From IMG/VR virus record IMGVR_UViG_3300044723_009336, positions 6,007 to 70,006 of that record: a DNA stretch of 64,000 bases; one strand, 5' to 3'. The DNA is from a virus. Under the pieces are notes generated by a model, which had not been told where the DNA came from, did no database searches, and was given only the letters and a program-made list of their open reading frames with translations. Below, in pieces: positions 31,192 to 44,545 of this stretch. The translations under genes were made by a program, and so were the position numbers. Numbering within the stretch: the stretch's first letter is position 1; every line of letters starts with the position of its first letter.

Positions 31192-31553
31192 CAGATACCT
31201 TTATCGTAGACAAAGATGGGAATCGAGTAAATGCATCAAATGTTACGGTACCATCAGATAGATTATTCCGTGATTCATGGGTACTCAGTGGATCAGTTAT
31301 CGAAGAGGATCTAACAAAGGCAAAGGAGATCTTTCGTGATAAAGTTCGTGAAGTAAGAAAAGGATTACTTGATGCAAAAGACGTAGAGTATATGAAGGCA
31401 CTTGAGACGAGTGCAGATACTTCTGCGATTATATCGACAAAACAGAGTTTGAGAGATGCACCAAGTGCGTCAGCAATAGATAATGCAACGACGATTGCTG
31501 AACTAAAAGCAGCATGGGATACAGACTTATTAGGTGATAATCCTTATAGCTAA
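31188..31553 (+). CDS. Putative tail fibre assembly chaperone
   Basis: SDRLFRDSW...KAKEIFRDKVREVRKGLL...KQSLRDAP...ELKAAW. Start at ATG 31188 (ATGA overlap). Confidence 0.7.
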   Translation: MTDTFIVDKDGNRVNASNVTVPSDRLFRDSWVLSGSVIEEDLTKAKEIFRDKVREVRKGLLDAKDVEYMKALETSADTSAIISTKQSLRDAPSASAIDNATTIAELKAAWDTDLLGDNPYS

Positions 31554-32503
31554 TGGAAAGTGAAATGACAGAAGAAAACAAAAATGAAGTGGCTATCTTT
31601 GAACAAATTCGTACGAATGTTCAAGTAGCAGATCGAAATGAATATAAAGTACCGATGGCGATGGTTTTTGGAAAGGGATCACTTGCGCGGACCGAAAGTT
31701 TTGGTGGTAGTTCTCTCGTCGAGAATTCAGAGAAAGTAGATCTCGCCATTCAAAATACAAATGAGTTACAGAATATCTGGAATCACTCGCACTCGCAGTG
31801 GATGTGGAAACATTTGAATCTCTCTTATCATTCTCCTCATAAGAACATGAGACAGATCGCCGCAGAGATGAATCGAAAAAAGTCAGCACTCAACGAGGCG
31901 AAGTGGAGACAGGTCAAGAACGAGGTCAAGATCAAAAAGATCGAAGAAGAACTCGAGTCTGGCAAATGTGATTATTGGAGAGAGGTCGATCTCACAGTCA
32001 AACTCACTGAACTGAGAGAGGGACTCGCCGAAGGTATCGTAACGATCGAAGGTGCGATGAAAGACGTTCTCGTACTCAATGAGTTATACGAGCAACTGAA
32101 AGGTAAGGTCTCTAGTTTCTCTGAAGTCGATATCGAGATGGAAGAGAGTAAGACACACTTGAAGAGAAGTATCGTTCAGTCAATTCGCGACGTTCGTATG
32201 TCGGGATCGATTACGAAGGCAGAACAAGAATACTTAGAACAGATCGGCGTGAATCCAATGAAGATGCAGAATCTGATTCGACAGTACGTCAAACAAGAAG
32301 CAGAGTCGACTTCGTGGGATAACAAAGGATTATATGATTTCGTTGATGGCATAGTGAAAGATTTGATAGACAATCATAAGGTTGATATCATAAGAATGGA
32401 GTATATGGGATTTGACTCGAAGCCTGTAGAGAACATGTCTTATGATACAGTCGTAGCAAGGAGAATAGAAGGCAATGAGCAAACTAATCGTAACGACGAT
32501 TGA
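31553..32503 (+). CDS. Coiled-coil protein of unknown function heading the propeller array
   Basis: Long charged heptad region (NMRQIAAEMNRKKSALNEAKW...LTELREGL) and SIRDVR...ITKAEQEYLEQIGVNP motif. Confidence 0.75.
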   Translation: MESEMTEENKNEVAIFEQIRTNVQVADRNEYKVPMAMVFGKGSLARTESFGGSSLVENSEKVDLAIQNTNELQNIWNHSHSQWMWKHLNLSYHSPHKNMRQIAAEMNRKKSALNEAKWRQVKNEVKIKKIEEELESGKCDYWREVDLTVKLTELREGLAEGIVTIEGAMKDVLVLNELYEQLKGKVSSFSEVDIEMEESKTHLKRSIVQSIRDVRMSGSITKAEQEYLEQIGVNPMKMQNLIRQYVKQEAESTSWDNKGLYDFVDGIVKDLIDNHKVDIIRMEYMGFDSKPVENMSYDTVVARRIEGNEQTNRNDD

Positions 32504-32834
32504 GGATGCGAGTGGAGCAGCAGGTACAGTTACCTTTACGGGTTCTGTCGAAGCAGTCGACTTCAACTCGACTTCTGATGCTCGTCTCAAGACAGAGATC
32601 ACAGGTATCGAAGGAGGTCTGAATAAGATCGCTCAGATGCGAGGTGTGACATTTAAGATTCACGATAAACCATCGGCTGGTGTCGTTGCGCAAGAATTAG
32701 AACAAGTAATTCCTGCTGCAGTCAAGACTGGCGATGATGACTATAAGTCAGTGAACTACAACGTCATTATCGGATATCTGATTGAGGCAGTCAAAGAACT
32801 TCAAGAGGAAGTCAATACTCTGAAAGGTCAGTAA
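32475..32834 (+). CDS. Peptidase S74 intramolecular chaperone with only a ~33-aa N-terminal segment
   Basis: SDARLK (S34/K39), LRGV-like MRGVTF, GVVAQELEQVIP, SVNYNVIIGYLIEAVKEL. AAGGAG RBS at 32458-32463. Confidence 0.85.
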   Translation: MSKLIVTTIEDASGAAGTVTFTGSVEAVDFNSTSDARLKTEITGIEGGLNKIAQMRGVTFKIHDKPSAGVVAQELEQVIPAAVKTGDDDYKSVNYNVIIGYLIEAVKELQEEVNTLKGQ

Positions 32835-32835
32835 A

Positions 32836-33792
32836 GTGGCCTATCAAGTCAGTGGCACTGAAAAGATAAAAGATGATAACACTGTAACATTCAAGACAGT
32901 TACAGTGACAAATTACTATACGCTTTTTGGTGGGATTGGGGCGGGTGCTTCTTTTGGATATTCATCTGGTGGATTTTCTCCACCGTATGTCAATACGATT
33001 GATAAATTTACTTTTAGTGCTGATGCTAATGCAACTGATGTCGGTGATCTCACTCAAGCAAGAGGATTTATAGCAGGCCAATCTTCTGCTACAAATGGAT
33101 ACACATCTGCTGGCACTACTCCTGGAGCAGTCAATACAATCGACAAATTTCCTTTTAGTGTAGACGCTAATGCTACTGATGTTGGGGATGTGATTCAAGC
33201 AAGAAGCGGAGTAGCAGGCCAATCATCAACTGAAAATGGGTATGTATCTGGAGGAAGTGTTAGTAATATAATAGAAAAATTTCCTTTTAGTACAGACGCT
33301 AACGCAGCTGACGTAGGCGACTTAACTCAAGCAAGAGATCGCGTTATAGGACAATCATCTATTTCGAATGGTTACACATCAGCAGGACTAATTCCAGGTC
33401 CAACTACAGTCAATACAATCGACAAATTTCCTTTTAGTGCTGACGCTAACGCAACAGACGTTGGTGATCTCACTCAAGCAAGATACGGTGCAGCAAATCA
33501 TTCATCAATTGACAATGGTTATGCTGCTGGAGGGTTTGCTCCAGGATTAGTAAATATAATAGATAAGTTTCCATTTGCTGCTGATGCGAATGCAACAGAT
33601 GTTGGAGACCTAACTCAGTCGAGATCATCTAGTGTTGGGCAAAGCTCAGATACAAATGGGTATAGTTCTGGCGGTAGTAGTCCACCTACTGTCAATATAA
33701 TAGATAAGTTTCCATTTAGTGCAGACGCTAACGCAGCTGACGTAGGTGATCTGAGTCAAGTGAGATATGGCGCAGCAGGACAACAAGGATAG
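32836..33792 (+). CDS. Six-blade Kelch-like beta-propeller protein 1 of 8
   Basis: Six GYxSGG...IDKFPFSADANATDVGDLTQAR...GQSS repeats. GTG start. Confidence 0.85.
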   Translation: MAYQVSGTEKIKDDNTVTFKTVTVTNYYTLFGGIGAGASFGYSSGGFSPPYVNTIDKFTFSADANATDVGDLTQARGFIAGQSSATNGYTSAGTTPGAVNTIDKFPFSVDANATDVGDVIQARSGVAGQSSTENGYVSGGSVSNIIEKFPFSTDANAADVGDLTQARDRVIGQSSISNGYTSAGLIPGPTTVNTIDKFPFSADANATDVGDLTQARYGAANHSSIDNGYAAGGFAPGLVNIIDKFPFAADANATDVGDLTQSRSSSVGQSSDTNGYSSGGSSPPTVNIIDKFPFSADANAADVGDLSQVRYGAAGQQG

Positions 33793-33796
33793 AAAT

Positions 33797-34792
33797 ATGG
33801 TTTATAAAGTATCAGGAACAGACGCACTCAAAGACGATAACACAGCAGTTTTTCGAAATGTAATTGTGACTACGAATCAGACGACATCTACAGGCCTCGG
33901 AGGATCTACGAGTGGATATGCATCAGGCGGAGCAGCTCCTGCTTTTTCTACTGTAATAGATAAATTCCCATTTTCTGCTGACGCAAATGCGACTGATGTA
34001 GGAGATCTAACTCAAGGAAGAACCAATGTATCTGGTCAATCATCAGCTGATAATGGATATTCATCTGGGGGCACACCTGCAATCAATATAATTGATAAAT
34101 TCCCGTTTAGCGCTGATGCCAACGCAACAGATGTAGGAGACTTAACACAAGGCCGAGCTTCGTCATCCGGACAGTCATCGTCTGATAATGGATACACTTC
34201 AGGAGGATCCAATACAGGATTTCCGATAGTTGGTACAAATACAATAGATAAATTCCCATTTTCTGCTGACGCAAATGCGACAGATGTTGGAGATTTATTA
34301 GGTATAAGATTAGATGCTTCTGGCCAGTCTTCTTCATCTAATGGTTATATATCTGGGGGACAAGATCAAACTCCAGGGGGAACAGGTGCCTCTAATATTA
34401 TTCAAAAATTTCCATTTTCTGCCGATGCCAATTCAACAGATGTTGGAGATCTGACCGTAGCTAAAATTCAATCTTCAGGTCAATCATCATCGACCCATGG
34501 ATATACATCTGGCGGTCCAAACAGCAATATTATTGAAAAGTTTTCCTTTAGTACAGACGCAAATGCAACAGATGTGGGAGATTTGACTCAGGCAAGATAC
34601 AAACCTGCAGGCCAATCATCAACTGAAAACGGATATGCTGCTGGTGGGTATAATTCTGGTAATCCAGCTCCGCCACCTCCTCTTCAAAATTTTGATACGA
34701 TTGATAAGTTTCCTTTTAGCACTGATGCTAACGCAACAGATGTTGGTAATTTAACTCAAGCAAGAAATGCTGCTACAGGACAACAGGTGTAA
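33797..34792 (+). CDS. Kelch-like propeller protein 2 of 8
   Basis: Six repeats. Start re-placed at ATG 33797 (MVYKVSG), matching paralog N-termini. Confidence 0.85.
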   Translation: MVYKVSGTDALKDDNTAVFRNVIVTTNQTTSTGLGGSTSGYASGGAAPAFSTVIDKFPFSADANATDVGDLTQGRTNVSGQSSADNGYSSGGTPAINIIDKFPFSADANATDVGDLTQGRASSSGQSSSDNGYTSGGSNTGFPIVGTNTIDKFPFSADANATDVGDLLGIRLDASGQSSSSNGYISGGQDQTPGGTGASNIIQKFPFSADANSTDVGDLTVAKIQSSGQSSSTHGYTSGGPNSNIIEKFSFSTDANATDVGDLTQARYKPAGQSSTENGYAAGGYNSGNPAPPPPLQNFDTIDKFPFSTDANATDVGNLTQARNAATGQQV

Positions 34793-34795
34793 TGA

Positions 34796-35791
34796 ATGCC
34801 GTATAAGATCAATCTACCACTCGTAGGAAGCACGGGAACTCGAAAGAAAGTCGTGATCGACGAGAACAACGATCTATTCATTGATGTGTCTCGCGTCGGA
34901 TCTTTTGTAGGGATTTCACCGGTGCAAGGATCTACGAGTGGATATGCATCTGGTGGTATACCTACTCCTGGCACTTCTACAAATATTATAGATAAGTTTC
35001 CTTTCGCGGCAGATGCGAATGCTACCGATGTGGGAGATCTAACTCAATCAAGATATTCTGTAGCTGGTCAGTCTTCTACTACGAGTGGATATAATTCTGG
35101 TGGACAAGTTCCCCCTTCTACGCCAGTTACCACAATCGATAAATTTCCTTTCAGTGCAGATGCAAATGCAACAGATGTTGGAGATCTAACGCAAGCAAGA
35201 GAACAACCTGTAGGAACATCTTCTGATACAAGCGGATATGCATCAGGTGGAAGAACTCCTGCTACGTCGAATGTAATCGATAAGTTTCCATTCAGTACTG
35301 ATGCAAACGCAACAGACGTAGGAGATCTAACTCAAGGAAGAGGTCAAATTGGAGGTCAATCATCACGTACTCATGGATATAATTCTGGAGGTTTTACACC
35401 ACCTACTCAGACTAATGTAATTGATAAATTTCCTTTTAGTTCTGATGCAAACGCCACCGATGTCGGAGATTTACTTTCTGCTAAAAGAGGTGTGACAGGA
35501 ACATCTTCTGATACAAATGGATATGCTTCAGGAGGATTCCCTTATCAAAATGTCATTGAAAAATTCCCCTTCAGTGCTGATGCAAATGGAGTTGATGTGG
35601 GCGATCTGACTGTATCAAAAGCATTTTCAGCTGGCCAGTCTTCTACTACGAGTGGATATAATTCTGGAGGAAACGGCACACCCCCAATTACTAACATTAT
35701 TGATAAATTTCCTTTTAGTTCAGATGCAAACGCAACTGATGTAGGTGACTTGACACAAGCAAGAAGTTCTTCAACAGGTCAACAGGTGTAA
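34796..35791 (+). CDS. Kelch-like propeller protein 3 of 8
   Basis: Six repeats alternating GYASGG/GYNSGG. Confidence 0.85.
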   Translation: MPYKINLPLVGSTGTRKKVVIDENNDLFIDVSRVGSFVGISPVQGSTSGYASGGIPTPGTSTNIIDKFPFAADANATDVGDLTQSRYSVAGQSSTTSGYNSGGQVPPSTPVTTIDKFPFSADANATDVGDLTQAREQPVGTSSDTSGYASGGRTPATSNVIDKFPFSTDANATDVGDLTQGRGQIGGQSSRTHGYNSGGFTPPTQTNVIDKFPFSSDANATDVGDLLSAKRGVTGTSSDTNGYASGGFPYQNVIEKFPFSADANGVDVGDLTVSKAFSAGQSSTTSGYNSGGNGTPPITNIIDKFPFSSDANATDVGDLTQARSSSTGQQV

Positions 35792-35829
35792 TAAATAGTA
35801 ACATGGCATATAAGATATCAGATACAGCA
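35774..35829 (+). repeat. 56-bp exact direct repeat, copy 1 (gene junction with AATAAATA)
   Basis: ACAGGTCAACAGGTGTAATAAATAGTAACATGGCATATAAGATATCAGATACAGCA, identical to 37770-37825. Confidence 0.9.
35790..35797 (+). promoter_or_regulatory. Probable late promoter (AATAAATA) inside the array
   Basis: NATAAATA variant 5 nt before ATG 35803. No obvious RBS, so the transcript may be near-leaderless. Confidence 0.55.
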
Positions 35830-36819
35830 CTTATTTTTGAATCAGATGGATCTGCAATTTTAGTTGCAGAGACAGTGAACTATCGAGGCACTTTGACTAC
35901 GACGAACACTACGTTCGACTTGGATCCAAATTATATCACAGATTACTTTCCTGCCGGATTTCAAGGAGAAGTAAGTGGATATGCATCTGGTGGCAGTCCT
36001 ACTACTAACATAATCGATAAGTTTCCTTTTAGTGCTGATGCAAATGCTACTGATGTTGGAGATTTAACTCAGGCAAGAAGCGCTAGTGCTGGACAATCAT
36101 CAGGCTCGAATGGTTATTCTTCTGGTGGATTTGCTCCACCTGGTGTTAATACGATTGATAAATTCCCTTTCAGTACTGATGCTAACGCAACTGATGTAGG
36201 TGATCTATCTCAAGCAAGATCATTTGTATCTGGTCAATCATCTGCGTCAAACGGTTATACTTCTGGAGGAATTTTTCCAGAACCTACCGTTAACACAATC
36301 GATAAGTTTCCATTTAGTAGTGATGCAAATGCAACAGATGTGGGCGATTTGTCTCAAGGAAGAAACGCTCTTGCAGGTCAATCGTCTTCTGAGAATGGAT
36401 ACACTTCTGGCGGCGGTGCTCCAGGAAGTGTCAATATAATAGACAAGTTTCCTTTTAGCACAGACGCTAATGCGTCAGACGTTGGTGATTTGAGTCAAAC
36501 AAGAGAAGGCACAACAGGTCAATCGTCTTCTGAAAATGGATATTCATCGGGTGGTTCGACTCCAACTCGAGTCAATACAATCGATAAGTTTCCATTTAGT
36601 GTTGACGCAAATGCGACTGATGTTGGAGATTTGACTCAAGCAAGAAGTGGACCAGGTGGACAATCATCCACTGAAAACGGATACGCATCTGGAGGATCAT
36701 CTGCACCTTTTAGCAGTCAGAATACGATTGATAAGTTTCCGTTCAGTACAGATACAAACGCAACTGACGTAGGTGATCTGACTCAAGTAAGAAATGGATT
36801 AGCAGGACAACAGGTATAA
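35803..36819 (+). CDS. Kelch-like propeller protein 4 of 8
   Basis: Six repeats after a MAYKISDT leader. Confidence 0.85.
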   Translation: MAYKISDTALIFESDGSAILVAETVNYRGTLTTTNTTFDLDPNYITDYFPAGFQGEVSGYASGGSPTTNIIDKFPFSADANATDVGDLTQARSASAGQSSGSNGYSSGGFAPPGVNTIDKFPFSTDANATDVGDLSQARSFVSGQSSASNGYTSGGIFPEPTVNTIDKFPFSSDANATDVGDLSQGRNALAGQSSSENGYTSGGGAPGSVNIIDKFPFSTDANASDVGDLSQTREGTTGQSSSENGYSSGGSTPTRVNTIDKFPFSVDANATDVGDLTQARSGPGGQSSTENGYASGGSSAPFSSQNTIDKFPFSTDTNATDVGDLTQVRNGLAGQQV

Positions 36820-36821
36820 CG

Positions 36822-37787
36822 ATGGTTTATAGAGTCAACAGAGATCCAATCATTGACGGCGACAGAGTACTTCGTGTCGATCGTATGCGCGTGGGAAGTT
36901 TTTCAGAAACCTATAAATTCCAGGGATCTACAAGCGGATATACATCTGGTGGATTTGCACCACCTTATACAAACGTAATTGATAAGTTTCCATTTAGTTC
37001 AGATGCTAACGCAACAGACGTCGGAGATTTGACTTCAGTTAGAGCTGGTCCAGCAGGACAATCTTCAGATGCAAGTGGATATTCGTCTGGAGGCAAAACC
37101 TCGTCTTATCTTAATATTATCGATAAGTTTCCTTTTAGTGCAGATACAAATGCAACAGATGTAGGAGATTTGACCCAAGCAAGATGGATTCCAGCAGGAC
37201 AATCATCATCAGAAAATGGATATACTTCAGGTGGGGATGTACCACCCGAGACTAATATCATTGATAAATTTTCTTTTAGTAGTGATGGAAATGCAACTGA
37301 CGTAGGAGATTTATCTCAAACGAGAGGTAGATTGGCTGGTCAATCTTCTTCTTCGAATGGTTACTCGTCAGGAGGTCATTCTGCATTTCCTACAACTACC
37401 AACGTCATAGATAAATTCCCATTCGCAGCAGATGCGAATGCAACAGATGTAGGAGATTTGACCCAAGCAAGAGGATATCCAGGAGGGCAATCATCTTCCG
37501 AAAATGGATACTCATCAGCTGGTTACGCAGGAGATGCTTCAGGATTGAATACTATAGATAAATTTCCATTTGCCGCAGACGCAAATGCTACTGATGTCGG
37601 AGATGTAACACAAGGAAGATATCCTGTTGCAGGACAATCGTCAACTTCTAATGGTTATTCTTCTGGAGGATATTCTTCTGGTGGGACTAACATTATAGAT
37701 AAATTTCCATTCGCTACTGATGCTAACGCAACTGATGTAGGTGATTTGACTCAAACAAGGTGGGAAACTACAGGTCAACAGGTGTAA
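36822..37787 (+). CDS. Kelch-like propeller protein 5 of 8
   Basis: Six repeats after a MVYRV leader. Confidence 0.85.
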   Translation: MVYRVNRDPIIDGDRVLRVDRMRVGSFSETYKFQGSTSGYTSGGFAPPYTNVIDKFPFSSDANATDVGDLTSVRAGPAGQSSDASGYSSGGKTSSYLNIIDKFPFSADTNATDVGDLTQARWIPAGQSSSENGYTSGGDVPPETNIIDKFSFSSDGNATDVGDLSQTRGRLAGQSSSSNGYSSGGHSAFPTTTNVIDKFPFAADANATDVGDLTQARGYPGGQSSSENGYSSAGYAGDASGLNTIDKFPFAADANATDVGDVTQGRYPVAGQSSTSNGYSSGGYSSGGTNIIDKFPFATDANATDVGDLTQTRWETTGQQV

Positions 37788-37825
37788 TAAATAGTAACAT
37801 GGCATATAAGATATCAGATACAGCA
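37770..37825 (+). repeat. 56-bp exact direct repeat, copy 2
   Basis: Identical to 35774-35829. Includes AATAAATA at 37786-37793. Confidence 0.9.
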
Positions 37826-38794: not shown

Positions 38795-38796
38795 CG

Positions 38797-39837
38797 ATGG
38801 TTTATAGACTCGACGCAGGTACAGTAATAGACGCAGACGGTAACTTAGTTATCGAGAACCTGTATGCGAGTAGTGTTGCTCAGCAGTATTCATTTCAAGG
38901 ATCTACAAGTGGATATACATCAGGAGGAGCACCCACTTTACCTAGTATTAATAATATTGTTTCTAATACGATCGATAAGTTTCCATTTGCTGCAGATGCG
39001 AATGCAACAGATGTTGGTGATCTGACGTTGTCAACCAATTCATCTGCAGGATCACATTCTATGGAAAATGGGTATGTTTCTGGGGGTACTGCGCCAACGG
39101 ATTTTCCTACAAGAATTACAAATACGATTCAAAAATTTCCGTTCAGTGTCGACACTAATTCTACAGATATCGCAGATTTAACAGAAGCAAAGCATTTATT
39201 TGCAGGCCATTCTTCAGATGCTAATGGTTATACTTCTGGTGGTTCGGAAAATACCACCGTTGCAACACCACCCGCTAATCAATATAATACGATTGAAAAA
39301 TTTCCTTTCAGTGCAGACGCAAATGCAACTGACGTTGGGGATCTCACTCAAGTAAGAAGAAGCTCATCTGGTACGAGTTCGGAAACCCATGGATATACTG
39401 CAGGTGGTAACCTGTTTCCGGAATCACCCGGTACTACGCCAATTACAATTGATCGATTTCCTTTTAGTTCAGATGAAAATTCATCTGATGTAGGTGATCT
39501 CTATGCTGGAGCTGGTTTATCATCAGGTCAATCTTCTACTACTCATGGATATGCTTCGGGTCAAGGACCACCATATTTTTCTAATATTATACAAAAATAT
39601 TCATTTTCATCATCAGCTAACAGTTCCGATGTTGGAGACTTAACTGCAGGGAGAAGTATTCAAGCAGGGCAATCCTCTACAAATCATGGATACGTATCTG
39701 GTGGTCAAATTCCCCCATCGCCATCACCCGATGTAAGAGATATTATTGACAAATTTTCTTTTAGTGTAGACGCTAATGCAACAGACGTAGGTGATCTAAC
39801 TCAAGCAAGAGTATCCGCAACTGGTACAGAGATATAA
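38797..39837 (+). CDS. Kelch-like propeller protein 7 of 8
   Basis: Six repeats after a MVYRL leader. Longer Pro-rich loops. Confidence 0.85.
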   Translation: MVYRLDAGTVIDADGNLVIENLYASSVAQQYSFQGSTSGYTSGGAPTLPSINNIVSNTIDKFPFAADANATDVGDLTLSTNSSAGSHSMENGYVSGGTAPTDFPTRITNTIQKFPFSVDTNSTDIADLTEAKHLFAGHSSDANGYTSGGSENTTVATPPANQYNTIEKFPFSADANATDVGDLTQVRRSSSGTSSETHGYTAGGNLFPESPGTTPITIDRFPFSSDENSSDVGDLYAGAGLSSGQSSTTHGYASGQGPPYFSNIIQKYSFSSSANSSDVGDLTAGRSIQAGQSSTNHGYVSGGQIPPSPSPDVRDIIDKFSFSVDANATDVGDLTQARVSATGTEI

Positions 39838-39840
39838 ATA
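39833..39840 (+). promoter_or_regulatory. T4-type late promoter (TATAAATA) before propeller 8
   Basis: Exact consensus overlapping the upstream stop, 5 nt before ATG 39846. Confidence 0.7.
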
Positions 39841-39845
39841 GCAAC

Positions 39846-40901
39846 ATGGCATCAAAATATAAAATAGGTGGAAAAGCTATCCTAACAGACTCAGACGGAA
39901 CTCGAGATCTCATTGGTGTTTCTGTTGTCTACGAAGACTCTTTCACTGCTACGAATACGATTCGATCACTTGCACCAGATTACTTTGATGCTTATATATT
40001 TCCGAGTAATCCATTTCAGGGTGAAGTGAGTGGATATTCTAGTGGGGGTCGAGCTGCATCGAACGTTATAGATAAATTTCCCTTTGCATCAGATGCAAAT
40101 GCAACAGACCATGGGGATTTACAATATGGAAAAGAACAGCCAGCTGGGAATTCATCGGAAACTCATGGGTATTCATCTGGAACGTATTCTCCTTTCGGTA
40201 ACACTAAAACAATAGAAAAATGGTCATTTACATCTAATACTACTTCATCAAGCATAGGTAATTTAACTGCTCATAATGTTTACACTGGTCTCGGGATAGG
40301 CCAGTCTACTATTACAAACGGGTTTGGATATCACTCTGGTGGTAGAGGTGCGCAAAATACCGTAGAAAAGTTTCCATTCAGTTCAAATGCTGATGCAACC
40401 GATGCTCTTAATTTATCTTCGGGGAGAGAAAATCTTAGTGGTCAATCTGATGATGGCGGCGGGCATGGTTATACTGCAGGAGGTAGAAGAGGAATTCCTC
40501 CGGTAGCTGTTAATATAATTGATAAGTTTCCCTTTGCATCTGATGCGAATGCAACAGACGTAGGAGATACTTCAGTACTACATGACTACGGCACTGGTGG
40601 TCAATCGTCAGAAACTCATGGTTATATCGTTGGCGGGTTTCCACAAAATAGTGTAATCGATAAATTTTCTTTTGCCTCTGATGGAAATGCAACAAATATA
40701 GGAAATTTAATATCAGGTCCGAGAAATGATCGTATGGCAGGGCAATCATCATTTACACATGGATATGCAAGTGGATCAGGCCAGACTGCGCCAGATGGAA
40801 GTAACGTTATTCAAAAATGGCCATTTAGTAGTGATGCTGATGCAACCGACGTAGGTGATTTAACTAGGTCTATGGGTGAAATGGGTGGCCATCAGGTTTA
40901 G
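39846..40901 (+). CDS. Kelch-like propeller protein 8 of 8 (most divergent)
   Basis: Six more degenerate repeats ending GGHQV. Confidence 0.82.
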   Translation: MASKYKIGGKAILTDSDGTRDLIGVSVVYEDSFTATNTIRSLAPDYFDAYIFPSNPFQGEVSGYSSGGRAASNVIDKFPFASDANATDHGDLQYGKEQPAGNSSETHGYSSGTYSPFGNTKTIEKWSFTSNTTSSSIGNLTAHNVYTGLGIGQSTITNGFGYHSGGRGAQNTVEKFPFSSNADATDALNLSSGRENLSGQSDDGGGHGYTAGGRRGIPPVAVNIIDKFPFASDANATDVGDTSVLHDYGTGGQSSETHGYIVGGFPQNSVIDKFSFASDGNATNIGNLISGPRNDRMAGQSSFTHGYASGSGQTAPDGSNVIQKWPFSSDADATDVGDLTRSMGEMGGHQV

Positions 40902-40938
40902 AAACGATATATATAATTTTACATGAATACTTTATGAG

Positions 40939-42210
40939 GTGACAATGAATTCAATAGAATATTTTGAAAAAAATCGATACATTTATCTTGCAGATGTTTT
41001 ACCAAAAAATGTCTGTCAAGATCTCACTCAACATATGCACAATCTTCATAAGGAAGGTAAACTTGTTCAAGACGAACAGTGTCCACTTTCTTGGTCAGTC
41101 TATGGTGACTCGAAGTTTGATACATTACTTGCTAATCTAGCAAAACCAATTGGTGATAAACTTGGAGTAGAGATACTTCCGACATACACTTACGCACGTC
41201 TTTATCAGCCAGGCGATAGACTCAAAAAACATACTGACCGACCATCGTGCGAGATATCTGGTACTATGACACTTGGCTACGATCCAGACTCAGCACTTTG
41301 GCCAATCTTCTTTGGTAAAGATCAAAACGATCCAGGAACGTCATATGACATTGGCGTTGGTGATCTCGTTATGTATCGTGGAAACGAACTCGTTCACTGG
41401 AGACCAGAATATAAAGGTAAGTGGCAGGTTCAGGTTTTCTTCCACTATGTTGACGCAAATGGTCCACATAAGGAATGGGCAAATGATAAGAGAGCAGTTC
41501 TCGGAACTGGTGCTGAAACGAAAAAACAAAACACTGTTCAAAGAGAAACGATGGAAGAACCAGATAAGTACGAGTTTAAATATCATTTCTCTGCGAATAC
41601 AATGGCTATACTTCCTCAGGCAGATCATCTCCCAGGATATGCAGCTTTTTATAGTGGATTCAAACCAAAACTTGCATTTACACCTGAAGAATGTGATAAG
41701 ATTATTGCGACTGCAAGTAATCAATATGCGTCAAAGGCAAGAGTCGGTTCAGAGGCAACATCAAAAACTGACCTCAGTGTACGTAATGTAGATCAATATA
41801 ATATTGAACTGAATGAAGATACTCGATGGATCTATAATAAACTTGTACTTGCAGTCGCGATGGCGAATCACGAACATTTTGGTTTCAATATCAGTGGTAT
41901 TACTCACGATCTTCAATTACTTCACTATCGTTCAGACGATGGTAACGGTCACTATGACTGGCATGTCGACGTAGGTCACGGTCATTCTGCATGTCGTAAA
42001 ATTTCTATTTCAGTTATGCTTTCTCCAGATGATAAATATAAGGGTGGAGACTTAGAAGTAAACGATCACGGAGTACTTAGGCAAGGTGTTCGTGAGCAAG
42101 GATCAATCAACTTATTCCCGAGTTATATGCCACATCGTGTCGCACCAGTTACAGAAGGTGAGAGGTGGGCACTTGTTATATGGATAAACGGATCAGACAG
42201 ATTTAGATAA
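40939..42210 (+). CDS. Tandem double 2OG-Fe(II) oxygenase (N-terminal cyanophage-type domain plus C-terminal PKHD/prolyl-hydroxylase-like domain)
   Basis: Domain 1: YARLY...KKHTDRPSCEIS...ELVHWR. Domain 2: YDWHVD...RKISISVML...GGDL...FPSYMPHRVAPVTEGERWALVIW. Both have HxD...H triads. Start may be ATG 40945. Confidence 0.88.
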   Translation: MTMNSIEYFEKNRYIYLADVLPKNVCQDLTQHMHNLHKEGKLVQDEQCPLSWSVYGDSKFDTLLANLAKPIGDKLGVEILPTYTYARLYQPGDRLKKHTDRPSCEISGTMTLGYDPDSALWPIFFGKDQNDPGTSYDIGVGDLVMYRGNELVHWRPEYKGKWQVQVFFHYVDANGPHKEWANDKRAVLGTGAETKKQNTVQRETMEEPDKYEFKYHFSANTMAILPQADHLPGYAAFYSGFKPKLAFTPEECDKIIATASNQYASKARVGSEATSKTDLSVRNVDQYNIELNEDTRWIYNKLVLAVAMANHEHFGFNISGITHDLQLLHYRSDDGNGHYDWHVDVGHGHSACRKISISVMLSPDDKYKGGDLEVNDHGVLRQGVREQGSINLFPSYMPHRVAPVTEGERWALVIWINGSDRFR

Positions 42211-42220
42211 GGAGAATCAT

Positions 42221-42568
42221 ATGCCTGTTGTAGAATACAAGATGCATGTCATCAATAATAAAGGTGGCGCGACAGCACCACTTTGGGTAGATGATGGTGG
42301 ATATCATACATCACCTATCGATAAGACAAAGATTGGTTGGGTATTACCTGAAGCCGATCGTGAATACTATGTACCAGATACAGTCACTGAGTTATCGAAG
42401 AGTGAGTTCGTAACACGTCAGTTAGCAATCCATGCTGATACGCCATTTCAAAGTCAACCAGTTGACTCAAATGGTGAAGAAGTTGGAGACCCTGTTAATA
42501 TGACAGATGCTGAAGTAACAACCGATATGGAAGCATGGTACGATTCTTTTGTGAGTTCGCATAGCTAA
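42221..42568 (+). CDS. Hypothetical protein (115 aa)
   Basis: AAGGAG RBS. WVDDGGY...IGW...YYVPDTV motif. Confidence 0.7.
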   Translation: MPVVEYKMHVINNKGGATAPLWVDDGGYHTSPIDKTKIGWVLPEADREYYVPDTVTELSKSEFVTRQLAIHADTPFQSQPVDSNGEEVGDPVNMTDAEVTTDMEAWYDSFVSSHS

Positions 42569-42576
42569 TGGAGATA

Positions 42577-42696
42577 ATGCTTGCAAAACAGATACTCGAA
42601 CTCGAATCACACGAGCTCGAAGGTATCTTGATGAAACTGAAAATGGAAGATCGCGAAGCATATGAAAAATTGCAGGAGTTAGTTGAAGACTTATAA
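42577..42696 (+). CDS. Small helical protein (39 aa) missed by the ORF track
   Basis: GGAG RBS at 42570-42573. MLAKQILELESHELEGILMKLKMEDREAYEKLQELVEDL fills the gap between its neighbours. Confidence 0.55.
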   Translation: MLAKQILELESHELEGILMKLKMEDREAYEKLQELVEDL

Positions 42697-42700
42697 TATT

Positions 42701-43435
42701 ATGAATCATTATGAACGTTTTTTGAAAACAAAACTATTTACAGATCGTGTTGGACCAATATACGGTACCGAAGACTTTGGAATATATCTTTACTCAGTTA
42801 TCAAGATGATGAGACCAAAGAATATTTTAGAACTTGGTACTGGGCTTGGTACGACTATGCTATGGGCAGCACAAGCAATTCTTGAGAATAACGAAGGTAT
42901 TATTCACACTTTCGATGACGGAAGTGAATGGAATCATCTGAAGAATGCTCGTGATCAGATGGGCGAGTACTTTCGTGAAGATTATCTTTTCTATATCGAA
43001 AATCTCATTGACTCGTTTGAAATAAGAAAAGCTGTTGAGTTTCATCCAGTTCGAATCGAAGAGATAGAATCAGAGGCGCCAATCGATATACTCTTCTCTG
43101 ATTTCGCGCATGGGCCGTCTGATGTATTACAACTCCTTGCTGAATTTTTACCTCAGATGAATAGTTATAGTAAGATCTATATCGACTCTGCTTCTACTCA
43201 TTATGGGTCATATCACACTCTCGAAAAAGTAATTGATATGCTGAATCAGAATACGATTCCTCGATCCATTTCTGAACGAGCGAAGAATGACACCATACGT
43301 GATATCGTAAATCAGAGTCAGTTTCAACTCGATCATATTGTAGAAAACAAAGATCGTGCACAGAATAGTACTACTTGTATTACAATCCAACCATATGACG
43401 TATTTCCTTATCCGAGAGTCAATGTGAGGTATTGA
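42701..43435 (+). CDS. Class I SAM-dependent methyltransferase
   Basis: Motif I NILELGTGLGTT, IHTFDDG and IDILFSD. Start at ATG 42701 (track TTG 42683 also possible). Confidence 0.8.
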   Translation: MNHYERFLKTKLFTDRVGPIYGTEDFGIYLYSVIKMMRPKNILELGTGLGTTMLWAAQAILENNEGIIHTFDDGSEWNHLKNARDQMGEYFREDYLFYIENLIDSFEIRKAVEFHPVRIEEIESEAPIDILFSDFAHGPSDVLQLLAEFLPQMNSYSKIYIDSASTHYGSYHTLEKVIDMLNQNTIPRSISERAKNDTIRDIVNQSQFQLDHIVENKDRAQNSTTCITIQPYDVFPYPRVNVRY

Positions 43436-43980
43436 TGAAAGTAATCGATAATGTAATTGGTGATAAGTATTCAGAAATGATATTTGAAGAATGTGCGAAA
43501 CTTCCTTGGACCTTTGTACCAGATATATCATTTGGAAACCAAGCAAAGAGAAGTGTTCCAGGATTCTCACATAGTTTCTACCTCGATAAAGAATTCAATA
43601 ATAACGAACCAGTCACGATCGAATCAGAAAAATATCCTCTCATCAAACCTGTACTACTCGAAGCATTTGATAAATTGAATCTCAACATAAATTTACAAAA
43701 TGTTTTTCGTAGCCGCGCAAGACTCACGCTCGATCGTCCTGAATTATCTGAATCCGATCGTATTGACAACATTCACGTAGATTATCAAATCCCTCACCTC
43801 GTTTTGATATACTATGTCAATACGGTCGATGGTGATACTCTGGTATACGAAAATGATAAAATCGTAGAAAGAGTATCACCGAAGCGAGGTCGTTGTTTAC
43901 TGTTTGACGGTTCGCTACAACATACGTCCACGTCTCCTGCTCTTGGTCCAAGGATCATTATCAATAATAATATAAGGTGA
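43435..43980 (+). CDS. 2OG-Fe(II) oxygenase
   Basis: IHVD...LIYYVN..DGDT...PKRGRCLLFDGSLQHTSTSP...RIIINNN. TGATG coupling. Confidence 0.82.
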   Translation: MKVIDNVIGDKYSEMIFEECAKLPWTFVPDISFGNQAKRSVPGFSHSFYLDKEFNNNEPVTIESEKYPLIKPVLLEAFDKLNLNINLQNVFRSRARLTLDRPELSESDRIDNIHVDYQIPHLVLIYYVNTVDGDTLVYENDKIVERVSPKRGRCLLFDGSLQHTSTSPALGPRIIINNNIR

Positions 43981-43984
43981 ACTG

Positions 43985-44536
43985 ATGCATCCGAATCAAC
44001 ATAATCTTTTCGAAACTCCTATCTGGGGATTTATGCTCAACGATCAAAATTTACAGACATTTGATTATACTGATTACATTTTAGATATATCAAACACCGA
44101 ACAGTCTGCGACAAAGAGTAACATGGGTGGTTGGCAATCAAGAGATAATATTCACGAAGAACCGATCTTTCAAGAGTTCAATCGATCAATATTAGGTGCA
44201 GCAAAAAATATACTGAAAGACTACACTCAGTTAGAACCATATATTCAGAGTATGTGGGCAAACATTAATGTGAAGGGAGATTTCAACGCACACCACACTC
44301 ACGAAGGTGAACTATCGGGGGTTTATTACTGCAATGTACCAGAAAAATCAGGAGAATTGATACTCGTTGATCCTAAGGTGAGGTCTCATGTTTCTGTAAT
44401 AAGAAGTGGCAATTTTCCGATTCGTCCTGAAAGACTTGCTCTCATTATCTTTCCAAGTTGGTTAGAACATTACGTACAACCAAGTCAAAGTGATGATCCT
44501 CGAGTCAGTATTAGTTTCAATATAGGAATTAAATAA
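43985..44536 (+). CDS. 2OG-Fe(II) oxygenase-like protein (TIGR02466-type)
   Basis: SNMGGWQS, MWANIN...FNAHHTH...LSGVYY and IFPSWLEHYV...RVSISFN. Confidence 0.82.
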   Translation: MHPNQHNLFETPIWGFMLNDQNLQTFDYTDYILDISNTEQSATKSNMGGWQSRDNIHEEPIFQEFNRSILGAAKNILKDYTQLEPYIQSMWANINVKGDFNAHHTHEGELSGVYYCNVPEKSGELILVDPKVRSHVSVIRSGNFPIRPERLALIIFPSWLEHYVQPSQSDDPRVSISFNIGIK

Positions 44537-44537
44537 T

Positions 44538-44545
44538 TATAAATA
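44538..44545 (+). promoter_or_regulatory. T4-type late promoter (TATAAATA)
   Basis: Exact consensus before gp13. Confidence 0.82.

What the first reader, a model, noticed from the sequence alone, without database searches (positions are those of the whole stretch)
31553..44536. Candidate undescribed system: propeller library plus dedicated hydroxylase/methyltransferase cluster
Seen: without intervening core genes, the locus runs coiled-coil, mini-S74, 8 propellers, double 2OG-Fe(II) oxygenase, 115-aa and 39-aa ORFs, SAM methyltransferase, two more oxygenases, then gp13. The propeller variable loops are strikingly Pro-rich, and one oxygenase domain is of the PKHD/prolyl-hydroxylase-like type. 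No collagen Gly-X-Y repeats exist in the window as alternative substrates. Established: marine T4-like phages often carry multiple 2OG-Fe(II) oxygenases of unknown substrate in variable islands. Inference: these enzymes tailor the displayed loops (hydroxylation, methylation, perhaps priming glycosylation), adding a chemical layer of diversity to a genetically diversified adhesin set. An alternative is modification of host-surface or small-molecule substrates.
Basis: partly seen in the sequence, partly recalled or inferred. Interest (0 to 1): 0.8.

Follow-up and report, generated by a model that had tools for sequence, protein, structure and literature searches.

The report
Phage propeller adhesins with partner enzymes
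An uncultured marine T4-like phage carries a 13-kb late-gene cassette of eight Kelch-type propeller proteins that travels, across many related phages, with one fused double oxygenase and two unknown proteins, which gives the abundant but unexplained marine phage oxygenases a testable candidate substrate.

Summary
Window 31553-44536 encodes a 316-aa helical protein, a 119-aa S74 mini-gene, eight six-bladed Kelch-type propellers (AlphaFold pLDDT 91), a fused double oxygenase, conserved 115-aa and 42-aa ORFs, a methyltransferase and two small oxygenases. gp13 follows.

The block is a clean insertion. In close relatives the upstream gene abuts gp13 directly.

Propellers, the fused oxygenase, the 316-aa protein and the 115-aa ORF co-occur in dozens of viral contigs, in many gene orders and at several insertion sites. 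Four near-complete genomes each carry one copy of the oxygenase and of the 316-aa protein. The closest cultured relative has none of these genes. A distant cultured cyanophage, S-SKS1, has a similar but only partly verified grouping.

The methyltransferase and the two small oxygenases are accessory. Oxygenase clusters occupy the same site in propeller-less phages.

Late-promoter motifs and RNA-library contigs fit late co-transcription with the propellers.

No result shows that the enzymes modify the propellers, and the complex prediction gave no answer. Loop proline is positional (GGxxP), so it is a plausible but untested hydroxylation site. I judge this a real, undescribed gene module whose chemistry is unproven.

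The parts
31553..32503 (+). cc316: conserved 316-aa helical protein, single copy per genome, core partner of the module
   Evidence: There is no Pfam, PHROG, NCBIfam or PDB match. 22 orthologs average 65% column identity with many invariant H, W, R, D and E residues. It is always found with the fused oxygenase, orf115 or propellers. Distant relatives hit phrog_1409.
32475..32834 (+). 119-aa stand-alone Peptidase_S74 (intramolecular chaperone) mini-gene
   Evidence: Pfam PF13884 6e-15. It matches the C-termini of many tail-fibre PHROGs.
32836..33792 (+). Propeller P1
   Evidence: Member of alignment A1. It matches phrog_19111 at 2e-38.
33797..34792 (+). Propeller P2 (the ORF opens at 33767; the likely start is ATG 33797)
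34796..35791 (+). Propeller P3
35790..35797 (+). Late-promoter-like AATAAATA, 5 nt upstream of P4
   Evidence: The same 36-nt string recurs before P6.
35803..36819 (+). Propeller P4 (the modelled copy): N-terminal ~55 aa plus a six-bladed Kelch-type propeller
   Evidence: AlphaFold2 pLDDT 91, pTM 0.86. Foldseek finds PDB and AFDB Kelch domains.
36822..37787 (+). Propeller P5
37786..37793 (+). Late-promoter-like AATAAATA upstream of P6
37799..38794 (+). Propeller P6 (the ORF opens at GTG 37760; the likely start is ATG 37799)
38797..39837 (+). Propeller P7
39833..39840 (+). Exact T4-type late promoter motif TATAAATA upstream of P8. It is the last such motif before gp13.
39846..40901 (+). Propeller P8, the most divergent copy
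40945..42210 (+). oxyD423: fused two-domain enzyme. The N half belongs to the cyanophage 'ferrochelatase-domain' family. The C half is a PKHD/P4H-like 2OG-Fe(II) oxygenase.
   Evidence: Pfam 2OG-FeII_Oxy_3 3.6e-15 and phrog_2954/phrog_61. PDB PiuC 1e-6. H96-x-D98...H151 and H340-x-D342...H397 plus R407 are invariant in 27 orthologs.
42221..42568 (+). orf115: conserved protein of unknown function, core partner
   Evidence: No family match. It is conserved at 43-86% identity beside oxyD423 or cc316 in 31 of 67 loci.
42568..42696 (+). orf42: small acidic helical ORF, frequent accessory gene
   Evidence: It is conserved in 19 of 67 loci.
42683..43435 (+). MT250: class I SAM methyltransferase (Methyltransf_24), accessory gene
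   Evidence: Pfam 7.9e-9. It is present in 17 of 67 loci.
43435..43980 (+). oxy182: small 2OG oxygenase-like protein (the family is often mis-annotated as 'endonuclease V'), accessory gene
   Evidence: phrog_274 6e-33. Pfam 2OG-FeII_Oxy_3 scores 23 bits, below the cut-off. It is present in 11 of 67 loci.
43985..44536 (+). oxy183: 2OG-FeII_Oxy_5 / TIGR02466 oxygenase, accessory gene
   Evidence: Pfam 1.4e-19 and TIGR02466 9e-25. It is present in 22 of 67 loci. Relatives at 25-33% identity occur in Mosig and S-CAM8.
44538..44545 (+). TATAAATA late promoter of gp13. It marks the right boundary of the cassette.
   Evidence: The motif lies upstream of gp13 in 76% of 114 loci.
44576..45331 (+). gp13 neck protein (flank, not part of the cassette)
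   Evidence: phrog_211 4e-43. In relatives L133, L135 and L145 it directly follows the homolog of the gene that ends at 31553.

Best explanation
The block 31553-44536 is a mobile, late-expressed accessory-adhesin cassette of uncultured marine T4-like phages.

Its cargo is a tandemly amplified family of small proteins. Each has a short N-terminal attachment region and a six-bladed Kelch-type propeller. One face of the propeller carries the variable loops. I infer that these are virion-displayed binding proteins.

The propellers depend on a co-inherited, single-copy trio:
- a fused two-domain Fe(II)/2OG oxygenase;
- the conserved 316-aa helical protein;
- the 115-aa protein.

The most likely role of the trio is post-translational maturation of the propellers, made at the same late time. 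This would be hydroxylation by the oxygenase of a feature repeated in every blade. One candidate is the positionally conserved loop proline (GGxxP). The other is Asn or Asp of the invariant DANATD loop. The two unknown proteins would act as substrate-binding or assembly partners.

The methyltransferase, the 42-aa ORF and the two small oxygenases are optional add-ons. They belong to the general oxygenase island that many marine T4-like phages keep between the tail-fibre genes and gp13.

Shown: the fold, paralogy, co-occurrence, insertion boundaries, intact catalytic motifs and late-promoter motifs. Inferred: virion display, the enzyme-substrate relation and the modified residue.
For: **Fold.** The model has pLDDT 91 and matches Kelch six-bladed propellers.

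**Family size.** More than 4,410 unnamed metagenomic relatives exist. Only 5 hits occur in 185,579 GTDB species genomes, all on MAG contigs of at most 14 kb.

**Variability.** It is confined to the GG-to-IDKF loop, the strand 3-4 hairpin tip and the SSxxN turn. IDKFPF, DANATDVGDL, GQSS and GY-SGG are constant.

**Virion link.**
- The cassette lies between tail-fibre-like genes and gp13.
- Some relatives carry the Mtd_N receptor-binding-protein N-domain, at 9e-15.
- A Kelch protein is a virion component of phage CBB by mass spectrometry (PMC5259590).

**Module.**
- There are 42 collapsed gene orders in 67 propeller-anchored loci, many of them cut by contig ends. The enzymes often lie between propeller genes.
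- Insertion sites include upstream of gp13, between gp13 and gp14, and downstream of gp15.
- Lone propellers also sit between gp14 and gp15.
- The minimal form is gp13-P-oxyD-cc316-gp14 (L064, L065).
- Reverse queries with cc316 and with oxyD423 return the same set. Oxygenase homologs at 43% identity or less lack the partners, apart from the divergent trio in L158.
- Four genomes that are 89-100% complete each have exactly one oxyD423 and one cc316. The closest cultured relative, C48C1, has a tail fibre followed by a structural protein and then gp13, and has none of these genes.
- In 83 gp13-anchored loci the association of oxyD423 with cc316 or orf115 gives Fisher p = 2e-7. In L133, L135 and L145 the upstream gene abuts gp13.
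- In cultured S-SKS1 the only homolog of the oxygenase N half, plus an annotated 2OG oxygenase, lie within about 1.5 kb of a five-gene propeller-like array. A phrog_1409 protein lies inside that array.

**Enzyme competence.** Both HxD...H triads are invariant in 27 orthologs.

**Timing.**
- gp55 is present.
- All 11 exact TATAAATA motifs are on the + strand and, for those checked against the ORF list, lie just upstream of gene starts.
- No late motif lies in an intergenic gap between P8 and gp13.
- In relatives, cc316, oxy183 and orf115 carry the motif in 26-35% of cases, against 2.6% background.
- Contigs from RNA libraries bridge the junctions from the P 3' end into oxyD423 and from oxyD423 through to oxy183.
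Against: - No direct evidence shows that the enzymes touch the propellers. The complex prediction gave no answer.
- Related oxygenase pairs ('ferrochelatase' plus 2OG oxygenase) at about 30-35% identity, and relatives of oxy183, occupy the same site in propeller-less phages. In Mosig they sit beside ho1 and pcyA. The island therefore collects unrelated auxiliary genes, and the enzyme family does not need propellers.
- All-or-none presence could partly reflect inheritance of one block.
- 26 of 67 propeller loci show no trio gene in the fetched flanks. One 65-kb fragment has six propellers and no cc316.
- One fragment has the trio without a clear propeller (L105).
- A loop proline may be purely structural.
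- The oxygenase nature of the N half rests on a motif only.
- Distant cc316 relatives (phrog_1409) occur in S-RIM2 next to non-Kelch adhesins.
Confidence: 0.45

Rival explanations
1. This is island hitch-hiking. The propeller array and the oxygenase genes merely share the hyperplastic site between the tail fibres and gp13. The oxygenases and the two unknown proteins act on something else: other virion proteins, host proteins, nucleic acids or metabolites. Published proposals for cyanophage 2OG oxygenases are 2OG/N-status manipulation and DNA repair.
For: - Oxygenase clusters lie at the same site in the propeller-less Mosig and S-CAM8. They include a 2OG oxygenase, a 'ferrochelatase', an annotated 'endonuclease V' and further 2OG oxygenases. 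In Mosig they sit next to ho1 and pcyA.
- 231 GenBank phage records hold homologs of the fused enzyme, but only 3 hold propeller relatives.
- Sullivan et al. 2010 propose 2OG and DNA-repair roles (PMC3037559).
- MT250, oxy182 and oxy183 are present in only 11-22 of 67 loci.
Against: - The ortholog group at 47% identity or more, together with cc316 and orf115, stays with propellers through many rearrangements and several insertion sites.
- It is single-copy in four near-complete genomes.
- It is absent from about 76 close relatives that lack propellers.
- A similar grouping is seen in distant S-SKS1, partly by transitive homology.
- Late-promoter motifs argue against an early host-takeover role.
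Confidence: 0.3
2. This is a glycan route. The cassette enzymes build or tailor a sugar or another group that ends up on the propellers or on other fibres. The invariant D-A-N-A-T in every blade fits a D/E-x-N-x-S/T sequon. The hydroxylase and the methyltransferase would act on the glycan or prime it.
For: - DANAT is conserved in each of the six blades.
- A divergent version of the trio (L158) sits directly after a GDP-mannose-dehydratase/epimerase-family gene (5e-50) and a methyltransferase.
- In S-SKS1 a sulfotransferase lies inside the array.
- MT250 is of the Methyltransf_24 / O-methyltransferase type.
Against: - No glycosyltransferase was identified in the cassette, and no dedicated search was run.
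- The DANATD loop may equally be a structural or metal-binding loop.
- The sugar genes are seen in one divergent locus only.
- The sequon match is a resemblance from my own knowledge, not a test.
Confidence: 0.1
3. The propellers are adaptors rather than substrates. As in Kelch substrate adaptors of cullin ligases, the variable face of each propeller recruits a different target, either a host or a phage protein, to the single-copy oxygenase complex.
For: - The closest solved folds are Kelch substrate-adaptor domains such as KEAP1 and KLHL3/12.
- There are many propellers per one enzyme.
- Variability is concentrated in loops.
Against: - The cassette sits in the late structural region next to tail fibres.
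- Some relatives have an Mtd_N N-terminus.
- A phage Kelch protein is found in virions.
- No predicted enzyme-propeller interface was obtained (this is no evidence either way).
Confidence: 0.07

Closest known systems
Kelch-type beta-propeller virion proteins of jumbo phages (for example CBB_552 of Pectobacterium phage CBB; 'virion structural proteins' of PhiPA3, Noxifer and Phabio)
   Same: They share the six-bladed Kelch fold (BFVD matches). CBB_552 is a virion component by mass spectrometry (PMC5259590).
   Different: These proteins have no Pfam Kelch match. They form tandem arrays of 1-12 paralogs in T4-like marine phages. They travel with a dedicated oxygenase and two unknown proteins, which has not been reported for the jumbo-phage proteins.
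2OG-Fe(II) oxygenase / 'ferrochelatase-domain' gene clusters of marine T4-like phages (Kyanoviridae; Sullivan et al. 2010, PMC3037559)
   Same: oxyD423's halves match the same PHROG families (2954/3531 and 61). oxy182 and oxy183 match PHROG 274 and 81. The genomic site is the same, between the tail fibres and gp13.
   Different: Here the two genes are fused into one 421-aa protein. The ortholog group is tied to cc316, orf115 and propellers. The cultured phages examined (Mosig, S-CAM8, C48C1) lack these partners.
Viral and bacterial prolyl 4-hydroxylases acting on their own Pro-rich structural proteins (PBCV-1 P4H; Bacillus anthracis P4H, PDB 3itq/5hv0). The substrates are from my own knowledge.
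   Same: The C half belongs to the P4H/PKHD clade (2OG-FeII_Oxy_3). It has a weak hit to B. anthracis P4H at E 0.04 and better hits to PiuC at 1e-6. The cassette also encodes proteins with repeated Pro-containing loops.
   Different: There are no collagen-like or (PAPK)n repeats. The candidate sites are single loop prolines in a folded propeller. The enzyme has an extra N-terminal catalytic-looking domain. Activity is untested.
Tail-fibre genes with dedicated maturation factors (T4 gp37 with gp38/gp57A; S74 intramolecular chaperones; Bordetella phage Mtd). The T4 details are from my own knowledge.
   Same: These are receptor-binding genes co-located with small, conserved helper genes. An S74 domain is present, and Mtd_N occurs in some relatives.
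   Different: The helpers here include a redox enzyme. The adhesin is a monomer-like propeller rather than a trimeric fibre.
PHROG 1409 (unknown function), for example S-RIM2 SWTG_00016
   Same: Distant cc316 relatives (E <= 1e-20 to the cc316 profile) all match phrog_1409. hhalign of cc316 against the S-RIM2 member gives E 3e-4 with shared motifs. That gene also lies among small adhesins, a 2OG oxygenase and a methyltransferase-bearing protein.
   Different: cc316 itself does not reach any PHROG. S-RIM2's neighbours gave no Kelch match in Pfam.

Membership tests
Kelch-type six-bladed beta-propeller | Six four-stranded antiparallel blades around a central axis | tested here: met
   The AlphaFold2 model has pLDDT 91 and 24 strands in residues 58-337. 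Foldseek gives TM by target about 0.9 and rmsd about 2 A to KEAP1, KLHL and SAKe6.
Kelch-type six-bladed beta-propeller | Repeat of ~44-56 aa with a Gly-Gly doublet after a hydrophobic strand and a conserved aromatic residue | tested here: met
   The 47-aa repeat has a near-invariant GY-SGG and IDKFPF.
Kelch-type six-bladed beta-propeller | Match to Pfam Kelch models | tested here: not met
   No Kelch family appears at E <= 1 for any of the eight copies. Membership is therefore by fold, not by sequence profile.
2OG-Fe(II) oxygenase, P4H/PKHD clade (C half of oxyD423) | Pfam 2OG-FeII_Oxy_3 above the gathering score | tested here: met
   57.1 bits against a cut-off of 27.
2OG-Fe(II) oxygenase, P4H/PKHD clade (C half of oxyD423) | HxD...H iron triad and a basic residue for the 2OG C5 carboxylate | tested here: met
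   H340, D342, H397 and R407 are invariant in 27 orthologs. The role of R407 is inferred by position.
PKHD-type hydroxylase YbiX/PiuC (NCBIfam equivalogs PRK05467) | Score above the curated equivalog cut-off | tested here: not met
   The best score is 59 bits against a cut-off of 143. It is related to these families but is not a member.
2OG-Fe(II) oxygenase (N half of oxyD423) | Profile match to a known double-stranded beta-helix oxygenase family | tested here: not met
   There is no Pfam hit. The PDB profile search gives only a Tet-like dioxygenase at E 0.8. hhalign to the C half and to oxy182 is not significant.
2OG-Fe(II) oxygenase (N half of oxyD423) | HxD...H triad | tested here: met
   H96, D98 and H151 are invariant in 22-27 orthologs.
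Ferrochelatase (legacy annotation of PHROG 2954/3531) | Homology to ferrochelatase (HemH) families | tested here: not met
   No Pfam, NCBIfam or PDB ferrochelatase match was found. The name is an annotation legacy.
Peptidase_S74 intramolecular chaperone | Pfam PF13884 above cut-off, with the Ser...Lys cleavage motif | tested here: met
   55.7 bits against a cut-off of 22. S-D-A-R-L-K is visible at residues 34-39. Cleavage itself was not tested.
T4-type late transcription unit | gp55 late sigma factor plus TATAAATA motifs upstream of genes | tested here: met
   gp55 matches phrog_234 at 5e-49. All 11 exact motifs are on the + strand, near gene starts where checked. The motif lies before P4, P6, P8 and gp13. 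Promoter activity was not tested.
PHROG 1409 (for cc316) | Direct profile match | tested here: inconclusive
   cc316 gives no PHROG hit. Ten of ten distant relatives found with the cc316 profile hit phrog_1409 at 1e-6 to 1e-17. hhalign to the S-RIM2 member gives E 3e-4, and to the S-SKS1 member it is not significant.
Collagen-like P4H substrate | Gly-X-Y repeats | tested here: not met
   There is no run of four or more triplets in six frames.

The most novel reading that the evidence does not exclude
Every blade of the virion-displayed propellers is hydroxylated by the cassette's double oxygenase, with cc316 and orf115 as specificity or assembly subunits. The site would be the GGxxP loop proline or the DANATD Asn/Asp. 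In some lineages the product is further methylated, sulfated or glycosylated. Marine T4-like phages would then add an enzymatic chemical layer to a combinatorial library of receptor-binding modules. This would be the first dedicated 2OG-oxygenase modification system for phage adhesins. It would also give a concrete function to part of the very abundant marine phage 2OG-oxygenase pool.
Probability: 0.2. Interest if true: 0.85.

Novelty: new variant of a known kind. Interest (0 to 1): 0.62.

Why it matters
2OG-Fe(II) oxygenases are among the commonest 'auxiliary' genes of marine phages, and their substrates are unknown. The published ideas are 2OG/N-status control and DNA repair.

This module links one oxygenase ortholog group, by conserved co-occurrence through many rearrangements, to a specific and very large phage-only protein family. 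That family has more than 4,400 metagenomic members and no name or Pfam model. The module also includes two uncharacterised partner proteins.

This turns an open question into a direct experiment: co-express the proteins and look for +16 Da.

The work also defines a new family of phage Kelch-type propellers. They are amplified in tandem with one hypervariable face, so they are likely host-recognition or adhesion modules in uncultured estuarine and marine myoviruses. A cultured cyanophage, S-SKS1 on Synechococcus WH7803, appears to carry an analogous set and could serve as a model system.

Tried and rejected
- **First AlphaFold2 run.** The run on the 8 paralogs alone failed (pLDDT 36). It was repeated with 91 sequences.
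- **Complex prediction.** Complex prediction on oxyD423 plus propeller P4 scored 0.00. The verdict was 'no answer', so it is evidence neither for nor against binding.
- **Nucleotide search.** Megablast of the block against 50,697 GenBank phages found no match.
- **cc316 and orf115.** Neither has a tblastn match in GenBank phages. Neither has a Pfam, PHROG or NCBIfam match, and a PDB profile search with cc316 found nothing. The ESM Atlas gave no usable lead.
- **Fusions.** A search among 894 cc316 relatives found none. All are about 305-330 aa.
- **N half of oxyD423.** Comparisons with the C half, with oxy182 and with the PDB were not significant.
- **L158 neighbours.** hhalign of the 477-aa and 472-aa proteins against the propeller profile was not significant. 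Only a language-model lead points to Kelch, at 0.87, below the reliable range.
- **S-SKS1 phrog_1409 protein.** Direct hhalign against cc316 was not significant.
- **Frameshift fusion.** I considered that cc316 and the S74 gene, which overlap by 29 nt, form one frameshifted fibre. I rejected this because the two genes are not adjacent in most other loci.
- **orf42 as a RiPP-like precursor.** I rejected this because it is an acidic helical peptide without a Cys/Ser/Thr-rich core.
- **Literature.** Searches for PiuC substrates, for phage Kelch proteins with oxygenases and for S-SKS1 virion data found nothing that describes this module.

Full report
**Context.** The window is part of a 72.9-kb IMG/VR viral contig, about 42% complete. 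It comes from a T4-like marine myovirus.
- It encodes tail sheath, major head protein and gp55 late sigma factor, and gp13, gp14 and gp15.
- The closest cultured phage by major capsid protein is Phage C48C1 (Kyanoviridae) at 69% identity. Cyanophages, OM43 phages and pelagimyophages are at about 59%.
- Near-identical DNA occurs in estuary and seawater metagenomes from 16 studies.

**Observation.**
- The eight paralogs are 50-66% identical to the fourth paralog (P4), and each contains six ~47-aa repeats.
- With only the 8 paralogs AlphaFold2 failed (pLDDT 36).
- With 91 family members it gave a confident model: pLDDT 91, pTM 0.86, 24 strands from residue 58 to the C-terminus, and a low-confidence N-terminal ~55 residues.
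- Foldseek places the model among six-bladed Kelch domains such as SAKe6 designs, KEAP1 and KLHL3/12. E values are 1e-19 to 1e-20, TM by target about 0.9 and rmsd about 2 A.
- AlphaFold DB and BFVD agree. Viral matches include S-SKS1 proteins, a BcepSaruman 'Kelch-motif' protein and jumbo-phage 'virion structural proteins'.
- No Pfam Kelch model matches.

**The repeat.** The repeat reads IDKFPF-SxDANATD-VGDLTQxR-xxxx-GQSS-xxN-GYxSGG-xxPxxxNx.
- Entropy is low in the framework.
- Entropy is high in the loop after GG, at the tip of the strand 3-4 hairpin and in the SSxxN turn.
- By propeller topology (inference), the first two lie on one face, and the conserved DANATD loops lie on the other.
- Proline makes up 19.7% of the post-GG loops and 2.5% of the rest.
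- It is positional: 42-43% at +3 and 30-32% at +4 after GG, both in the window and in 83 relatives.
- There are no Gly-X-Y runs anywhere in the window.

**Enzymes.**
- The C half of the 421-aa protein is a P4H/PKHD-clade oxygenase. It matches 2OG-FeII_Oxy_3 at 57 bits, PiuC structures at 1e-6 and B. anthracis P4H at 0.04. It is below the NCBIfam YbiX/PiuC cut-offs.
- The N half belongs to the cyanophage family traditionally annotated 'ferrochelatase' (phrog_2954, 9e-44). It has no Pfam or PDB relative.
- Across 27 orthologs both halves keep an invariant HxD...H.
- MT250 is Methyltransf_24. oxy183 is 2OG-FeII_Oxy_5/TIGR02466. oxy182 is PHROG 274, often mis-named endonuclease V.

**Is it a module? 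Propeller-anchored loci.** I ran three kinds of test. A scan of IMG/VR with the propeller alignment gave 263 confirmed stretches, and 67 loci were fetched.
- Mapping the window's proteins onto them gave these counts out of 67: fused oxygenase 40, cc316 34, orf115 31, orf42 19, MT250 17, oxy182 11, oxy183 22.
- Many of the 26 loci without any trio gene are cut by contig ends.
- The order is extensively shuffled, with 42 collapsed orders, many of them truncated.
- The enzymes often lie between propeller genes.
- The set is found upstream of gp13, between gp13 and gp14 (L064 and L065 show the minimal form P-oxyD-cc316) and downstream of gp15 (L053, L054, L188, L191).
- Lone propellers sit between gp14 and gp15.

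**Is it a module? Reverse queries.**
- cc316 relatives are flanked by oxyD423, orf115 or propellers wherever flanks exist.
- oxyD423 orthologs at 47% identity or more sit with cc316, orf115 or propellers.
- Homologs at 43% or less have none, apart from the divergent trio in L158.

**Is it a module? Neutral anchor.** I fetched 83 loci through gp13, at 57-92% identity to the window's gp13.
- About 76 contain none of the four families.
- In L133, L135 and L145 the homolog of the gene ending at 31553 directly abuts gp13. The window's 13-kb block is therefore a clean insertion.
- The carriers have the genes together. The association of oxyD423 with cc316 or orf115 gives Fisher p = 2e-7.

**Is it a module? 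Whole genomes.**
- Four genomes that are 89-100% complete (155-220 kb) each have exactly one oxyD423 and one cc316 alongside several propellers.
- C48C1 has a tail fibre followed by a structural protein and then gp13. It has no propeller, cc316, orf115 or oxyD423.

**An independent, distant case.** Cultured Synechococcus phage S-SKS1 (208 kb) has about five propeller-like genes at about 37% identity, spanning the record ends.
- Its only homolog of the oxygenase N half, plus an annotated 2OG oxygenase, lie within about 1.5 kb of the array.
- A sulfotransferase lies inside the array.
- So does a protein that matches phrog_1409.
- phrog_1409 is the family hit by all ten sampled distant relatives of cc316.
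- The cc316 to phrog_1409 link is transitive. hhalign to the S-RIM2 member gives E 3e-4, but hhalign to the S-SKS1 member is not significant.
- C48C1, S-CAM8 and Mosig have no phrog_1409 gene.

**What weakens the 'dedicated' reading.**
- Propeller-less Mosig and S-CAM8 hold oxygenase clusters between the tail fibres or small adhesins and gp13. They include a 2OG oxygenase, a 'ferrochelatase', an annotated 'endonuclease V' and more 2OG oxygenases. In Mosig they lie beside ho1 and pcyA.
- The site is therefore a general island, and the enzyme superfamily does not need propellers.
- MT250, oxy182 and oxy183 behave as optional island genes.
- In S-RIM2 the phrog_1409 gene sits among non-Kelch small adhesins, a 2OG oxygenase and a methyltransferase-bearing protein.
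- This hints that the cc316 family serves accessory adhesins in general.

**Timing.**
- All 11 exact TATAAATA motifs in the window are on the + strand, and those checked lie just upstream of gene starts.
- [TA]ATAAATAG(T/C)AAC-ATG precedes P4, P6 and P8, and TATAAATA precedes gp13.
- No late motif lies in an intergenic gap between P8 and gp13, and no convincing terminator was found there.
- In relatives the motif lies within about 100 nt upstream of gp13 in 76% of cases, cc316 35%, oxy183 29%, orf115 26% and gp14/gp15 1-2%. Background is 2.6%.
- Contigs from three metatranscriptome libraries, two of them DNase-treated, match relatives at 90-97% identity. They bridge the junctions from a propeller 3' end into oxyD423, then oxyD423-orf115, orf115-orf42-MT250, MT250-oxy182 and oxy182-oxy183.
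- Contigs cannot prove transcription or timing. They are consistent with polycistronic expression.

**Are the propellers virion proteins?** This is inferred from four points.
- Their position is among tail-fibre-like genes.
- They carry late-promoter motifs.
- Some family members carry the Mtd_N domain of the Bordetella phage receptor-binding protein, at up to 9e-15.
- There is a mass-spectrometry precedent for a Kelch protein in phage CBB virions (PMC5259590).

The family is essentially phage-only. It has 5 hits in 185,579 species genomes, all on MAG contigs of at most 14 kb.

**Mechanism.** My best reading, at about 0.45, is an accessory-adhesin cassette whose propellers are matured by the co-inherited trio.
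- A single-copy enzyme serving 1-12 paralogs with six blades each should recognise a repeated, conserved feature.
- The semi-conserved loop proline (GGxxP) and the invariant DANATD loop are the two candidates.
- The enzyme-substrate step is inference only. The one complex prediction gave no answer.

Rivals are island hitch-hiking with other substrates (0.3), a glycan-tailoring route (0.1) and propellers as targeting adaptors for the enzyme (0.07). The glycan route draws on L158's sugar dehydratase, the S-SKS1 sulfotransferase and the DANAT sequon-like motif.

**Novelty.** Phage Kelch proteins and marine phage 2OG oxygenases are each known. I found no description of this propeller family, of cc316 or orf115, or of their conserved association. 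I rate it a new variant of a known kind: receptor-binding gene cassettes with helper genes. The candidate chemistry is novel but unproven.

Noticed in passing
L158:1-8280: This locus holds a divergent version of the trio: oxygenase at 43%, cc316 at 39% and orf115 at 34% identity. It sits directly after a class I methyltransferase and a GDP-mannose-dehydratase/epimerase-family gene (5e-50). It is followed by three P/S/T/G-rich proteins of 364-477 aa before gp13. The 477-aa protein gives only a language-model lead to Kelch repeats (0.87), and hhalign to the propeller profile is not significant.
   Followed up: partly
L124 (S-SKS1 NC_020851.1, 199.8-208.0 kb and 0-1.1 kb): The propeller-like array of this cultured cyanophage contains a sulfotransferase gene and a phrog_1409 gene. 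A 2OG oxygenase and the 'ferrochelatase'-type gene lie within about 1.5 kb of it. Annotation is patchy here: there are unannotated gaps, and some matches contain stop codons.
   Followed up: partly
L210:8866-11371 (S-RIM2 NC_020859.1): The phrog_1409 protein SWTG_00016 is followed by a 521-aa protein. By eye its C-terminus looks like a class I methyltransferase and its N-terminal part is Cys-rich, but Pfam found no family in it. Both lie among small adhesins that share an MSKL...PxGTTAQRP...RFN N-terminus.
   Followed up: no
window 32475-32573: The 33-residue passenger of the S74 mini-gene begins MSKLIV. By eye this resembles the N-termini of the small adhesins of S-CAM8 and S-RIM2 (MSKLIV.., MSKLSI..). 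It could be the remnant of such an adhesin reduced to its adaptor plus chaperone.
   Followed up: no
window 35786-35821 and 37782-37817: An identical 36-nt string, holding the late-promoter-like motif, the start codon and the first codons, precedes P4 and P6. P8 has a close variant. The three long-N-terminus propellers (P4, P6, P8) each have their own promoter and alternate with short-N-terminus copies (P3, P5, P7). This suggests a two-gene duplication unit.
   Followed up: partly
window 39000-40600: In DNA metagenome contigs (run X2) and one RNA-library run, several joints skip 190-1270 nt between repeats of P7 and P8. These could be population variants made by recombination between blades or genes, or assembler artefacts in repeats.
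   Followed up: no
L125-L129: The only genome-collection hits of the propeller family are contigs of 1-14 kb binned into Gammaproteobacteria MAGs (Nau_11, Nau_16) and a Glaciecola MAG. This is either a weak host hint or phage contamination of the bins.
   Followed up: no
window 21244-23224 and 28676-29413: Further tandem small paralogs lie upstream, after large fibre genes. The two tested (21244-21891 and 28676-29413) match phrog_24074 and phrog_8510 'virion structural protein'. The phage seems to carry several families of small accessory binding proteins, not only the propellers.
   Followed up: no
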